Origin: the human T2T-CHM13v2.0 reference genome, Homo sapiens | NCBI RefSeq assembly: GCF_009914755.1 | Contig: NC_060925.1 | Strand: one strand, 5' to 3' | DNA: 64,000 bases | In this document: piece by piece, positions 10,462 through 61,401 of the stretch | Position numbering within the stretch: position 1 is the stretch's first letter | Layout of the letters: every line of letters starts with the position of its first letter | Translations under genes and position numbers: made by a program | Notes under the pieces: model-generated | What the model was told of the DNA's origin: nothing | What the model saw: only the letters and a program-made list of their open reading frames with translations | Database searches by the model: none

Positions 10462-11323
10462 TGTGGCATAGACTGGCGAGATGCTCACCCACCTGTTTCC
10501 TTTCTTCCTGAGCATGTGCCTGAACATTTCCCAGCTTCCTTTGTCCATGGATATAGTGACGTGACTGAGAATAGTCAGTGGAATACGGGCAGATGTAAAT
10601 ATCACATCCAGAGCTGGTCAATGAAGCCTACCCATACATGACTGTGATAGTTACTTTTATGTGTCAGCTTGGCTGGGCGACAACGCCCAGATAAGTAGTT
10701 AAACATTATTCTGGACGTTTCTGTGAAGGTACTTTTGAATGAGATTAACATTCACATCAGTGGGCTTTGAATAAAACAGATTGCCTACAAGAATGTGCCT
10801 CATCCAATCAGTTAAAGGCCTGTATATAACAAAAGACTGACCACCCCCAACTGAAAAAAGAATTCTGTAGGAGATGGCCTTCGAACTTGAATGGAAACAT
10901 CTACTCTTCTCTGGGTTTCCAAAGTTCTGGCCTATTCTATAAATTATAGACTTGCTAGCCTCCATAAACATAAGCCAATTCCTTAAAATAAATCTTTCTT
11001 TCCTTTCTCTCTCTCTCTCTCTTTATACACACACACATACATTTTATACTCACACATATACACTTTATACACACACACATAGACATACCCGTATTCTATT
11101 GGTTCTGTTTTTCTGGAGAACCCTGACTAATACAATGAATTTCTAGGAAGAACTCTTAAGAATGAAGAAAGAATTTGGGTTTCTTTGTTGGAAGTCCTCT
11201 TGCCAACCAGGGACATCCACATGGACTTAGCATGAATGGGAAATAAACTTTCATTGTGTTAAGCTACTGAAATTTGTGGTTGTGATTGTTATAGCTGCCA
11301 GCATTACTTGATCTAACTAATAT
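10462..11323 (+). mobile_element. Old MLT1 (I/J-like) LTR interrupted by MLT2
   Basis: TTTCCTTTCTTCCTG...CATTTCCCAGCTTCC 5' part; GAAATAAACTTTCATTGTGTTAAGCTACTGA...CTAACTAATA 3' part. Confidence 0.65.
10643..11134 (+). mobile_element. MLT2 (C/D-like) ERVL solo LTR with internal (TC)/(CA) repeat
   Basis: TGTGATAGTTACTTTTATGTGTCAGCTTGGCTGG start; CTGGAGAACCCTGACTAATACA end; TSD ATGAC/ATGAA. Confidence 0.9.
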
Positions 11324-11378
11324 AGCAGATGGTGAATGAGATGGTTGTTAATTTCCCTTTATCGCTGACATTCTAAAG

Positions 11379-11555
11379 CAGTGGTTCTCAAACTCAGCTG
11401 TGCATAAAAAAATCTTAAAGCTTTGAGAAAGTACTCATACTTGGTCTTTACCCCGAAATTACGATTTCTTTGGTTTCTGAGGTATAGCCCAGGCACTGGA
11501 ATTTCTAAATTCTCTCCAGGTGATTCTAATATGTCAATAATTTGAAGAACTACTG
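11379..11555. mobile_element. MER5 (A/B) DNA transposon
   Basis: CAGTGGTTCTCAAACT left TIR; CCAGGTGATTCTAAT...GAACTACTG right end. Confidence 0.75.
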
Positions 11556-11694
11556 TTATACAGGATGACTGAGACCAGAGTTAAAAGTTCATGGATAAGA
11601 GAAACCAAGAGGGTTCTGTTGGTGAAAGGCTTCATCTGGATGAATGGTATGATTTTCTGGCCTCAAAGCAGAGCTCTTGAGCTATATAATTATC

Positions 11695-11880
11695 GTTATT
11701 ATTAATAGTACCAAGAGGATACATGCATTATCTTACTACCTTGCTAAATTCTCACAATAAAACTCTTCCATAAATATTATGATTCTCACATTTTAAATGA
11801 GAGAAGCAAAGCTCAAACAGAGATTAAGGTAACTTGCTCAAAGTCACACAGCTAAGGAGTAGAGCCCATGCTCCCAACTC
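11695..11880 (-). mobile_element. MIR
   Basis: CATTTTAAATGAG...AAGGTAACTTGCTCAAAGTCACACAGCTAAG. Confidence 0.7.
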
Positions 11881-11912
11881 TAACCTGTAATACCTCCCAT
11901 TATCCTAAAGAA

Positions 11913-12227
11913 AATGCTATCCCACCCCCAGCCCCCCACCCCCTGACAGGCCCTGGTGTGTGATGTTCCCCTCCCTATGTCCATGTGTTCTCATTGTTTA
12001 ACTCCCACTTATGGGTGAGAACATGCAGTGTTTGGTTTTCTGTTCTTGCAATAGTTTGCTGAGAATGACGGTTTCCAGCTTCATTCATGTCCCTGCAAAG
12101 GACATGAACTCATCCTTTTTGATGGCTGCATAGTATTCCAAGGTGTATATGTGGCACATTTTCTTTATCCAGTCTATTATTGATGGACATTTAAATAACA
12201 TATAGTTTCCCAAGCCATTTAGCAGGA
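11913..12227 (+). repeat. Direct local duplicate of 13344-13659 (L1PA piece plus its unique flank)
   Basis: About 94-95% identical to 13344-13659, including the L1 truncation point and ~35 bp of non-L1 flank (ATAACATATA.TTTCCCAAGCCATTT.GCAGGA). Confidence 0.95.
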
Positions 12228-12257
12228 GAACCTGCTATAGATCGAGAACCACTATAA

Positions 12258-12449
12258 TTGAGAACCACTGCTTTAGAATGTCAACGATAAAGGGAAATTA
12301 ACAACCATCTCATTCAACGTCTGCTATGTTAGTTACATCAAGTAATGCTGGCAGCTATAACAGTCACAACCACAAATTTCAGTAGCTTAACACAATGGAA
12401 GTTTATTTCCCATTCATGCTAAGGCCATGTGGATGTCCCTGGTTGGCAA
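12258..12449 (-). repeat. Inverted local duplicate of 11200-11391
   Basis: 192-bp reverse complement, 8 substitutions by manual count, spanning the MLT1 end, unique spacer and MER5 TIR. Confidence 0.97.
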
Positions 12450-12509
12450 ATGTCCTGATTTGCCAAGATTTGTCCTGATAAAGAAAATGTCCTGATCAAA
12501 ATAAGTAAG

Positions 12510-13096
12510 AATCACACTGTGCAACTTGCTGCTCAGATACCTGAAATATTGCATTCAATTCCCAGAGTCCCAGTTTAAAGAAGAAGATAGTAAAATTGTG
12601 TTCAGAGAGGAGCAAGTAGGTTGTTGGAAAGCCTGGCAAGCACGAATAAGTGGAAGAGAAAGGAAGGGTTAGATCCCAGAAAGGCAATGCTAAAAAAGAA
12701 GGAATGATTAAAGAAAGAGAACATAATAGCGCATTCAAATATTGTAAAGTTTGTCACGTGAAAGAGGAATTAGCCTGTTCTCCCTTTGTCCAGAGGGTTA
12801 AATCAGGATCATAAATTAGACATTGCAAAAAAAAAAAAAGAAAGAAAATTCTGTTTGGTATAAAGAAGACCTTCTAATAATTAGAGCTTTTCTGAAAACT
12901 AGCAGGGTTGCTAGGATTTAATGAGAAAATATGTTCTGTAAATGCGTATAAAACACTGAGTATTTTTGTTGCTATTATCATGTAGGTGAGTGTTCCATTC
13001 ATTGAAATGTGCAGGTACATACTGAAATGGTGGTTCTGCACAAGATAGGAATAAGTTAGATGGTCATTAAGGTCCATTCTAATCCTAAGATTTTAT
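12510..13096 (+). mobile_element. CR1/L3 LINE 3' fragment
   Basis: TTCAAATAT...TGTCACGTGAAAGAGGAATTAG, AAGACCTTCTAATAATTAGAGCT, and 3' end TAGATGGTCATTAAGGTCCATTCTAATCCTAAGATT. Confidence 0.65.
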
Positions 13097-13205
13097 CCTC
13101 ACATATCTTGGGTCCCTCCAAAAAAAAAAAAAAGTGTTTTATAAAATGTCTTGTCTAATGACTGGTTGACTGGTGACCAATATATATATATATACCATAT
13201 ATATA

Positions 13206-13624
13206 TTTCTTTAATTTATTTTTTAATTATACTTTAAGTTCTGGGGTACATGTGCAGAACATGCAGTTTTGTTACATAGTTATACACGTGCCTTGGTGGT
13301 TTGCTACACCCATCAACTCGTCACCTACATTAAATAATTCTCCAATGCTATCCCACCTCCCAGCCCCCCACCCCTCAACAGGCCCTGGTGTGTGATGTTC
13401 CCCTCCCTATGTCCACGTGTTCTCATTGTTCAACTCCCACTTATGGGTGAGAACATGTAGTGTTTGGTTTTCTGTTCTTGTGATAGTTTGCTGAGAATGA
13501 TGGCTTCCAGATGCATCCATGTCCCTGCAAAGGACATGAACTCATCCTTTTTGATGGCTGCATAGTATTCCAAGGTGTATATGTGGTACATTTTCTTTAT
13601 CCAGTCTATTATTGATGGACATTT
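13206..13624 (-). mobile_element. L1PA (L1PA7/8-like) 3' end, 5'-truncated
   Basis: TTATACTTTAAGTTCTGGGGTACATGTGCAG 3' UTR; ORF2 C-terminal peptide IDWIKKM.HIYT.EYYAAIKKDEFMSFAGTWM in minus ORF 13430-13684. Confidence 0.95.
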
Positions 13625-14101
13625 ATATAACATATATTTTCCCAAGCCATTTCGCAGGATATGCAGTCTATTTCTTCCCACCATAAAAGTTAAAGAAAAT
13701 CTACAGCAATAATTTGGTCAATTGTGGTTTACTGAAAACTTACTAGGAGGCTAACTTTGAGATATTCACTTTACTTGAATATAAATATCACGAAGTACAT
13801 ATAGTGGATAGAGTACTTCCTGAGACAGCACGAAGGCCCATGTCTGTCCCCTTTAGCTCCTCCCATAGTCAATCATTGTGTTGAGTTGTTCAGTCTGCAT
13901 TGTCTCATCTTCTCCATGGCAAGCTTTTCTGAACAGGTCCACTACGCTTTGGTATTCTCTCCACAGTATAGCTCAGTGATTGCCACACCACAGATGCTCA
14001 ACAAAAGTTTGATTTGGAGATGACCTAGACCCTACAAAAGTTGTCTGTGGTCCTGCACTCACAGCATGATAACTGAGGGATAATGTACAAGGAAAAATGT
14101 G

Positions 14102-59873: not shown

Positions 59874-60149
59874 TTTTTTTTTTTCTTGAGACGGAGTCTC
59901 GCTCTGTCGCCCAGGCTGGAGTCCAGTTGGCGCCATCTTGGTTCACTGCAAGTTCCGCCTCCCGGGTTCACACCATTCTCCTGCCTCAGCCTCCCCAGTA
60001 GCTGGGGCTACAGGAGCCCACCACCACGCCCCGCTAATTTTTTGTATTTTTAGTAGAGATGGGGTTTCACCGTGTTAGCCAGGATGGTCTCAATCTCCTG
60101 ACCTCGTGATCCGCCCGTCTCAGCCTCCCAAAGTGCTGGGATTCCAGGT
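59874..60149 (-). mobile_element. AluY, slightly 5'-truncated
   Basis: GCAAG.TCCGCC, CACCGTGTTAGCCAGGATGG diagnostics. Confidence 0.93.

Positions 60150-60593: not shown

Positions 60594-61401
<808 letters not shown>

What the first reader, a model, noticed from the sequence alone, without database searches (positions are those of the whole stretch)
11906..12489. Complex templated insertion built from two nearby DNA segments, with snap-back and re-priming scars
Seen: an 11-bp duplication TAAAGAAAATG (11906-11916 / 12479-12489) brackets about 570 bp made of four parts. (a) A direct copy of 13344-13659, entered via AATG microhomology. (b) A junction hairpin TAGCAGG-AGAA-CCTGCTA (12220-12237) and a stuttered GAGAACCACT (12244-12253, 12260-12269). 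(c) An inverted copy of 11200-11391. (d) A second hairpin TTGGCAAAT-GTCCTG-ATTTGCCAA (12443-12466) and three copies of TGTCCTGAT (12451, 12471, 12488). Copy (a) carries the L1 truncation junction plus unique flank, and it shares non-consensus bases with the source (TATGGGTGAG, TTTTTGATGG, TTCCAAGG). It is therefore a DNA-level copy, not a second retrotransposition. Inference: a single break was repaired by serial template switching (MMBIR/FoSTeS or polymerase-theta templated insertion) using donors ~0.5 kb upstream and ~0.9 kb downstream. Both copies are ~4-6% diverged from their sources, consistent with one old primate germline event. A repeat annotator would label the pieces as separate L1, MLT1 and MER5 hits and hide the event.
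Basis: partly seen in the sequence, partly recalled or inferred. Interest (0 to 1): 0.8.

Follow-up and report, generated by a model that had tools for sequence, protein, structure and literature searches.

The report
Old patchwork insertion copied from neighbours
A 573-base insertion in an intron of human RGS7 was stitched together long ago from copies of two nearby stretches of DNA, a well-preserved but ordinary example of a known kind of error-prone DNA repair.

Summary
An 11-mer (11906-11916 / 12479-12489) brackets an insert with four parts:
- a direct copy of 13344-13659 (17 substitutions and 1 indel in 315 nt);
- a 30-nt filler;
- an inverted copy of 11200-11391 (8 differences in 192 nt);
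- a 29-nt filler.

Searches of the window's own genome show that both copies come from the local donors. The junction stretch matches only itself and the two donors. Only the local donor follows copy (a) 35 bp past the L1 truncation point. The two copies share 6 bases that 13-15 of 15 other L1 copies lack.

The fillers are built of abortive re-copies of adjacent sequence and two hairpins, more than shuffles or window controls give.

Best reading (0.75): one old germline break or stalled fork, repaired by DNA-templated, microhomology-primed serial template switching. The short steps look like polymerase-theta end joining. The two long tracts are far longer and more distant than is typical for it, and fit MMBIR/FoSTeS better.

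New here: the bracketing 11-mer is the exact reverse complement of a motif inside the copied L1 (chance about 0.001).

No primate orthologue could be examined, so "single event" and the age (roughly 15-35 Myr) stay inferred. It is a new member of a known kind; interest is modest.

The parts
11906..11916 (+). Left copy of the bracketing 11-mer TAAAGAAAATG. Its last 4 nt (AATG) are shared with the start of donor A (junction J1 microhomology).
11913..12227 (+). Copy (a): direct copy of 13344-13659. It holds 281 nt of a 5'-truncated L1 plus 35 nt of the unique flank beyond the truncation point. 17 substitutions and 1 indel.
12228..12257 (+). Filler J2 (30 nt). It holds a partial re-copy GAGAACC (12226-12232), a 7-bp hairpin arm or 8-mer from donor C, a 10-nt re-copy GAGAACCACT (12244-12253) of the start of copy (c), and two 4-nt stretches of unknown origin.
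   Evidence: no match elsewhere in the genome
12258..12449 (-). Copy (c): inverted copy of 11200-11391, 8 of 192 differ.
12450..12478 (+). Filler J3 (29 nt). It holds a 12-nt re-copy of the right flank (12448-12459 = 12485-12496, AA shared), a 7-nt fold-back that completes a 9-bp hairpin (12443-12466), a GATTTG repeat, and a second TGTCCTGAT.
12479..12489 (+). Right copy of the 11-mer. With its neighbours (12477-12490) it is the reverse complement of 13588-13601 and of 12156-12169.
13344..13659 (+). Donor A, 855 bp downstream of the insertion point.
11200..11391 (+). Donor C. Its near end lies 515 bp upstream of the insertion point. Part of it is an old, diverged interspersed repeat.
13215..13624 (-). 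It has its own flanking repeats at 13190-13202 and 13625-13637.
   Evidence: (39 other hits cover query 1-410)
13588..13601 (-). L1 motif whose reverse complement equals the target 12-mer and the 14-mer at 12477-12490. It is ancestral L1 sequence (13 of 15 other copies).

Best explanation
One ancient germline event. A DNA end (or a stalled nascent strand) at ...TAAAGAAAATG took the following steps:
(1) It annealed by 4 nt (AATG) 855 bp downstream and copied 13344-13659.
(2) It let go, made two abortive starts on the top strand near 11391 (GAGAACC, then GAGAACCACT), and then copied 11391 down to 11200. This gave the inverted piece.
(3) It let go again, annealed by AA to the far side of the break and copied 10 nt. 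It then folded back on itself for 7 nt and re-copied TGTCCTGAT.
(4) It finally resumed on the original template 11 nt upstream of where it had left. That left the 11-mer on both sides.

In end-joining terms, one 3' end used the other side of the break as template (direct copy) and its own resected tail as template (inverted copy).

What is shown and what is inferred:
- Shown: the copies, their donors, their orientation, the junction sequences, and the equal and symmetric divergence.
- Inferred: the order of steps, a single event, and the enzymes.

The short fillers look like polymerase-theta work. The 316-nt and 192-nt tracts taken from 0.5-0.9 kb away fit low-processivity MMBIR/FoSTeS-type synthesis better.

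Side effects of the insertion: a 192-bp inverted repeat 866 bp apart and a 315-bp direct repeat 1432 bp apart, both in an RGS7 intron.
For: Local DNA donors:
- The junction query 12170-12300 hits only itself, donor A and donor C (3 of 3 scored).
- The local donor is the best non-self hit for (a) and the only one that passes the L1 truncation point.
- The local donor is the best non-self hit for (c), at 96% against 90% or less for short pieces elsewhere.

Direction of copying:
- The donors sit in native repeat context. The L1 has its own flanking repeats.
- Copy (a) starts mid-element.

One age:
- Divergence is 5.4% for (a) and 4.2% for (c), Fisher p = 0.67.
- Private changes split 9 to 6.

Microhomology at the switch points: AATG, GA, AA, AT.

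The fillers are made of nearby sequence and hairpins beyond shuffles and beyond most window controls.

Literature:
- Iterated dissociation and re-annealing gives patchwork templated insertions (PMC12426944, passages).
- Pol theta alternates snap-back, in-trans and untemplated synthesis (PMC4912351, passages).
- Foldback and cross-junction classes are described (PMC11541566, passages).
- MMBIR gives serial switches at 2-5-bp microhomology with direct and inverted segments (PMC2621351, passages).
Against: - No outgroup or empty site was seen, so a single event is not shown.
- The tract lengths (192 and 316 nt) and template distances (515-855 bp) are far outside what the papers read here give for TMEJ. 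Those are generally under 25 bp (PMC12426944), and typically under 10 bp within about 20 bp of the breakpoint (PMC11541566).
- A forward jump onto unreplicated duplex is awkward for a single-fork FoSTeS model.
- The pieces of J2 other than the 10-mer are at chance level: 7-8-mers with several equally good sources.
- Against real window sequence the filler statistics are only p of about 0.045 (J2) and 0.019 (J3).
- The same orientations are predicted by twin priming on an RGS7-sense RNA.
- The match between the 11-mer and the L1 motif is not explained by the simple model.
Confidence: 0.75

Rival explanations
1. RNA-templated insertion of the twin-priming type. A nick or staggered break at the A-rich target let two 3' ends prime reverse transcription on one RGS7 pre-mRNA (minus-strand sense). 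The top-strand end primed at AATG and ran towards the RNA 5' end, giving the direct copy of 13344-13659. The other cDNA gave the RNA-sense piece, which is the inverted copy of 11200-11391. The two joined at J2.
For: - Both donors lie in one transcription unit on the minus strand (hub annotation).
- Donor A is upstream of donor C in that RNA, and the orientations are exactly those twin priming predicts (my reasoning coordinates).
- The 11-bp flanking duplication is of retrotransposition size.
- The target reads CT/AAAG at the left edge, two steps from the recalled L1 endonuclease preference TT/AAAA.
- Twin priming is common at L1 insertions (1,047 cases in PMC12350158, passage).
Against: - There is no poly-A or A-rich tract where priming should have begun. 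J3 is instead made of re-copies of target DNA and a hairpin.
- The two pieces lie about 1.4 kb apart in the presumed RNA, rather than adjoining.
- The RNA has an AAAGAAA match 14 nt beyond the end of (c) (11180-11186), which would have been the natural priming site, but it was not used.
- RGS7 intron RNA would have to be present in the germline (not tested).
Confidence: 0.1
2. Two or more separate events. For example, an inverted duplication of 11200-11391 inserted first, and a later dispersed duplication of 13344-13659 landed at its edge (or the reverse order).
For: - Small inverted duplications called as insertions are common in humans (277 events, median 284 bp; PMC12350158, passage).
- The point estimates of divergence differ (5.4% against 4.2%).
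Against: - The difference is not significant (p = 0.67).
- Only the composite is bracketed by the 11-mer, and neither piece has its own flanking repeat.
- The second event would have had to land exactly at the border of the first.
Confidence: 0.1
3. Assembly artefact, or independent insertions of repeat-family members that only look like copies.
For: The L1 part of (a) matches other L1 copies at 92-93%, almost as well as the local donor at 94%.
Against: - The copies differ from their donors by 4-6%, which a mis-assembly of one locus would not give.
- 35 bp of unique flank and 6 shared odd bases tie (a) to the local donor.
- Copy (c) is not a high-copy sequence.
Confidence: 0.02

Closest known systems
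FoSTeS / MMBIR complex rearrangements (Hastings et al. 2009, PMC2621351)
   Same: Serial template switches, 2-5-bp microhomology at the joins, nearby templates, segments in direct and inverted orientation, and return to the original template.
   Different: The described cases are mostly CNVs of kilobases to megabases with switches over tens to hundreds of kb. Here the whole event spans 2.5 kb and adds 573 bp. Replication dependence cannot be tested.
Polymerase-theta (TMEJ) templated insertions: foldback, cross-junction and patchwork classes (PMC12426944, PMC4912351, PMC11541566)
   Same: One 3' end copies the opposite flank (direct) and its own flank (inverted). Priming is by 1-4 nt. There are abortive re-copies, hairpins, and short stretches of unknown origin. 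Fillers J2 and J3 fit in size and distance.
   Different: The two main tracts are 192 and 316 nt and are taken from 515-855 bp away. Typical values are under 25 bp, from within tens of bp.
Small inverted duplications found as insertions in human long-read data (Schloissnig et al. 2025, PMC12350158)
   Same: Size (median 284 bp), 1-15-bp microhomology, and an inferred replicative origin. Copy (c) alone would be such a call.
   Different: Here a second, direct dispersed copy from the other side is joined to it in the same insert. The event is old, not a polymorphism as far as can be seen here.
Short-range template switch, four-point model (Loytynoja and Goldman 2017, PMC5453318)
   Same: Switch-and-return with a reverse-complement fragment that creates a new inverted repeat and a potential RNA hairpin.
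   Different: That model covers one switch-and-return over tens of bases, and its authors explicitly exclude multiple successive rounds. This event needs at least three long-range switches plus several abortive ones.
L1 twin priming
   Same: Flanking duplication of about 11 bp. An inverted 5' piece is joined to a direct 3' piece from one upstream-to-downstream template.
   Different: There is no poly-A. The pieces are not L1 in origin as such. The L1 fragment was copied together with its truncation junction and flank.

Membership tests
TMEJ templated insertion | Inserted bases are copies of sequence flanking the break, direct (cross-junction) or inverted (foldback). | tested here: met
   all long pieces and most of J3 map to the flanks.
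TMEJ templated insertion | Priming and resolving microhomologies of a few nt at each switch. | tested here: met
   AATG, GA, AA, AT/GAT.
TMEJ templated insertion | Small size (generally under 25 bp) and templates within tens of bp of the break. | tested here: not met
   The tracts are 316 and 192 nt, from 855 and 515 bp away. Only the fillers are within range. Size limits come from PMC12426944 and PMC11541566 (passages).
TMEJ templated insertion | Dependence on polymerase theta. | not testable with these tools
   A fixed ancient event.
FoSTeS/MMBIR | Two or more template switches giving discontinuous segments, some inverted. | tested here: met
   Three long-range joins plus abortive ones.
FoSTeS/MMBIR | Microhomology of 2-5 bp at the joins. 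| tested here: met
   4 nt at J1, and 2 nt at the first attempts of J2 and J3. Two joins carry 4 nt of unknown origin.
FoSTeS/MMBIR | Origin at a collapsed or stalled replication fork. | not testable with these tools
   None.
L1-mediated retrotransposition / twin priming | Poly-A tract next to one flanking duplication. | tested here: not met
   12450-12478 holds no A run.
L1-mediated retrotransposition / twin priming | Flanking duplication of about 7-20 bp at an endonuclease-like site. | tested here: inconclusive
   The 11-bp duplication is present. The site CT/AAAG is two steps from the recalled consensus.
Independent L1 insertion (for copy a) | Own 3' end, poly-A and flanking repeats; no shared flank with another copy. 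| tested here: not met
   Copy (a) starts about 130 bp inside the element and shares the truncation junction plus 35 bp of flank with 13344-13659.

The most novel reading that the evidence does not exclude
This is a fossil of a single repair episode in which TMEJ-style cis (snap-back on a tail resected by 0.7 kb or more) and trans templating ran for hundreds of nucleotides, interleaved with typical 5-12-nt abortive cycles. The final re-capture was made possible by snap-back on a 14-nt L1 motif in the freshly made copy, which happens to be the reverse complement of the target. That would make the flanking 'duplication' a templated product rather than a staggered cut. It would also place germline end joining and MMBIR on one continuum. 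As a by-product it created a 192-bp, 96%-paired non-Alu dsRNA stem in the pre-mRNA of brain-expressed RGS7.
Probability: 0.25. Interest if true: 0.45.

Novelty: new member of a known kind. Interest (0 to 1): 0.3.

Why it matters
This is a clean natural specimen. After about 5% divergence all three junctions can still be read base by base. They show short abortive priming cycles and long copied tracts in one insert.

Such cases help to calibrate how large and how distant templated insertions can be in the germline. They also show that repeat annotation alone hides these events: NCBI masks only the two L1 parts, according to the hub table.

The insertion has no evident function. It lies deep in an RGS7 intron, and no RefSeq functional element is listed there. 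Its possible later effects are:
- recombination between the new 315-bp direct repeats (a 1432-bp deletion);
- recombination between the 192-bp inverted repeats (an inversion);
- a long RNA duplex in the intron.

Tried and rejected
- No primate orthologue can be reached with these tools.
- I looked for paralogues of the flanks that could stand in for an empty site. 12490-12860 has no other match (1 candidate, itself). 11600-11916 has only 6 short old-repeat hits at 76-93%. No proxy was found.
- Repeat families (MLT1, MER5, MIR, L1 subfamily) could not be named, because no repeat library is on hand.
- My first Fisher test used a miscount of 18 substitutions. One search uses 17.
- I considered that the target held no 11-mer at all and that both copies came from the L1 motif. 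I rejected this as less parsimonious, because it needs two identical 10-11-nt copies. The 9-mer AAAGAAAAT after the A13 run at 12827-12839 also hints that the 11-mer beside 12490 is old target sequence. That hint is unconfirmed.
- I considered an inversion between the 192-bp arms after a simpler event. It gives no simpler ancestor.
- I considered hairpin-opening (P-nucleotide) palindromes. The stems have 4-6-nt loops, so they do not fit.
- Gene conversion between the copies: the longest identical run is 69 nt, which is not unusual for 18 differences in 315 nt (my reading).

Full report
**What is there.** Reading 11000-13900 and repeat finding show two long local repeats. One is direct, 11927-12226 vs 13359-13658 (94%). 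The other is inverted, 11200-11391 vs 12258-12449 (96%). Local alignment sets the limits at 11913-12227 = 13344-13659 and 12258-12449 = reverse complement of 11200-11391. Copy (a) differs from its donor by 17 substitutions and one 1-nt indel. Copy (c) differs by 8 substitutions. The 11-mer TAAAGAAAATG stands at 11906-11916 and 12479-12489. The insert plus one 11-mer is 573 bp. In the whole 64-kb window these two pairs are the only local repeats (within 5 kb, 100 nt or longer) above 90% identity. The other 7 direct families and 8 inverted pairs are multi-copy families at 60-90%.

**The copies come from the local donors, at the DNA level.** The window's own genome could be searched.
- The insert query gave 8518 first-look candidates, of which 40 were scored. 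After itself, the best hit is the local donor (94%, query 8-322). The other 38 hits are copies of the same high-copy element at 92-93% and all stop at query 285-288.
- The donor region 13215-13700 matches 39 other copies only over 13215-13624. So 13625-13659 is unique flank beyond a 5' truncation point, and copy (a) carries it.
- Copy (c) with its fillers gave 9 candidates, all scored: itself, the local donor (96% over 192 nt), and 7 hits at 79-90% over 42-76 nt of the query. The reciprocal search agrees.
- A query across J2 (12170-12300) hits only itself, donor A and donor C (3 of 3). Nothing matches the 30-nt filler.
- I aligned the two local copies with 15 distinct other copies of the element (17 loci, 2 duplicates dropped). 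At 6 columns both local copies share a base that 13-15 of the 15 others lack: 11924, 11977, 12014, 12121, 12141 and 12154. Three further shared columns are polymorphic among the others.
- The donor element has its own 13-bp flanking repeat (13190-13202 / 13625-13637, 12 of 13 identical). Copy (a) has only the right-hand one, starts about 130 bp inside the element, and has no poly-T beside it. The direction of copying is therefore donor to insert.

**One age.**
- Of the 15 differences in the L1 part, 9 are changes in the donor and 6 are changes in the copy. The 3 in the unique flank cannot be polarised.
- The two pieces are equally diverged: 17 of 315 against 8 of 192, Fisher p = 0.67. One search used a miscount.
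- Together there are 25 substitutions in 507 aligned sites: 17 transitions, 8 transversions, 4 in CpG context. K2P is 0.051, and the Poisson 95% range of the raw distance is 3.2-7.3%.
- With a recalled long-term primate rate of about 1e-9 per site per year, this is about 25 Myr (15-35). That is near or after the ape-Old World monkey split. This is inference from recall, not a test.
- As an internal yardstick, the two copies differ by 14 of 280 (5.0%) in the L1 part. The 15 other copies differ pairwise by 7.1% on average, and from either local copy by 8.0-8.2%. The copying is therefore younger than the element's own insertion.

**The junctions.**

J1: the target and donor A share AATG. The bases before it differ.

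J2 (12228-12257):
- The end of (a), ...CAGGA, overlaps by GA a first GAGAACC (12226-12232). That is the start of the inverted piece (reverse complement of 11383-11389).
- CCTGCTA follows. It is either the fold-back partner of TAGCAGG (a 7-bp stem, -6.7 kcal/mol, 0 of 200 shuffles as good) or part of the 8-mer CTGCTATA, which matches the inside of donor C.
- Then come GATC (origin unknown), a 10-nt GAGAACCACT that repeats the start of (c), and ATAA (origin unknown).

J3 (12450-12478):
- After ...GGCAA the strand reads ATGTCCTGAT. With the AA before it, this is a 12-nt copy of 12485-12496, the far side of the break.
- TTGCCAA follows and completes a 9-bp hairpin (-7.5 kcal/mol, 0 of 200).
- Then come a GATTTG repeat and TGTCCTGAT again, and then the right 11-mer.

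Statistics for the fillers:
- Shuffled fillers reach the observed 10-nt match in 11 of 2000 (J2) and 16 of 2000 (J3). They reach J3's coverage (25 of 29 nt) in 0 of 2000.
- Real 29-mers from the window reach the coverages of J2 and J3 in 126 and 54 of 2799.
- Hairpins of these stem lengths occur in 2.2% and 0.48% of 40-nt windows.
- J3 is clearly templated. In J2 only the 10-mer stands out.

**How it most likely arose.** The pattern is that of one 3' end that repeatedly anneals by a few bases, copies, and lets go. Read from the left end, the direct copy comes from the opposite side of the break and the inverted copy from the end's own side. These are the 'cross-junction' (in trans) and 'foldback' (in cis) classes of polymerase-theta insertions (passages of PMC11541566, PMC4912351 and PMC12426944). 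The fillers match those classes in size and distance. The two long tracts do not. The reviews give generally under 25 bp, and typically under 10 bp within about 20 bp of the break. The tracts here are 316 and 192 nt, taken from 855 and 515 bp away. Serial low-processivity synthesis with 2-5-bp microhomology and direct and inverted segments is what MMBIR/FoSTeS describes (PMC2621351, passages). I therefore read it as one break or stalled fork repaired by DNA-templated serial switching, with end-joining-like closure. The same product can be described as a tandem duplication of 11906-13659 that lacks 11917-13343 in its first copy and has the inverted piece at its junction. The number of switches is the same. 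The order and direction of synthesis cannot be fixed from the product.

The 11-mer has only four exact matches in the window. The other two are on the minus strand, inside donor A (13589-13599) and inside its copy (12157-12167). Expected by chance is 0.21, and 0 of 100 shuffles reach 4. With its next base the target is a 12-nt reverse complement of 13588-13599. The right-hand 11-mer with its neighbours (12477-12490) is a 14-nt reverse complement of 13588-13601. The motif is ancestral to the element (13 of 15 other copies). A rough chance that an independent match falls within the 316-bp donor is 0.21 x 316/64000, or about 0.001. A possible meaning is that the last TGTCCTGAT primed by GAT on this motif in the new copy (a) (snap-back) and made AAAGAAAATGT. 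That would give 12 nt of homology to re-engage the original template and so produce the 'duplication'. This is speculation. An empty-site orthologue would test it.

**Rivals.**
- Twin priming on an RGS7-sense RNA predicts the same orientations and a flanking duplication. However, there is no A-rich tract at J3, the pieces lie about 1.4 kb apart in that RNA, and a natural AAAGAAA priming site just beyond (c) was not used.
- Two separate events cannot be excluded without outgroups. Only the composite is bracketed, and the divergences agree.
- An artefact, or independent repeat insertions, is contradicted.

**Compared with what is known.** Small inverted duplications called as insertions are the commonest non-mobile-element inversion class in 1,019 long-read human genomes (277 events, median 284 bp, mostly 1-15-bp microhomology; PMC12350158, passages). 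Short template switches are documented between human and chimpanzee. The four-point model, however, excludes multiple successive rounds (PMC5453318, passages). For PMC7954356, PMC5120786 and PMC7615360 I saw only search listings and abstracts. I did not search the literature for this particular locus. The event is a new example of a known kind.

**Consequences.** The minus-strand (RGS7-sense) RNA of 11190-12460 folds with the two arms paired over about 190 bp (MFE -554 kcal/mol, no shuffle control at this length). Whether that duplex forms or matters was not tested.

Noticed in passing
13190-13202 and 13625-13637: The donor L1 fragment (13215-13624, minus orientation) has its own 13-bp flanking repeat, 12 of 13 identical. 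An AT-rich or TA-repeat remnant sits where its tail should be (13180-13214).
   Followed up: partly
12827-12849 and 12480-12488: An A13 run is followed by GAAAGAAAAT. The 9-mer AAAGAAAAT equals the core of the bracketing 11-mer that precedes 12490. The stretch 12490-12839 may be an older retroposed piece with these as its flanking repeats. It has no other match in the genome.
   Followed up: partly
11100-11143: A 33-43-nt stretch has many 93-100% identical matches on many chromosomes. It lies next to CA/TC-rich simple repeats with a 21-nt period at 11019-11084. The family was not identified.
   Followed up: no
11770-11863: The left flank of the insertion holds an old interspersed repeat (6 genomic hits at 76-93% over 39-91 nt). 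By recall it looks like a MIR element ending about 10 nt before the insertion point.
   Followed up: no
11190-12460, minus strand: The insertion created a 192-bp, 96%-complementary inverted repeat 866 nt apart inside an RGS7 intron. The RNA fold pairs the arms end to end. It is a possible non-Alu editing substrate.
   Followed up: partly
13691-13700: A 10-nt direct match to the bracketing 11-mer (TAAAGAAAAT) lies 32 bp beyond the end of donor A. It may be chance in A-rich sequence.
   Followed up: no
59928-60148 and 61160-61380: These are two members of a multi-copy family 1.2 kb apart at 90% identity. After the finding itself, this is the highest identity among local repeats in the window.
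   Followed up: no
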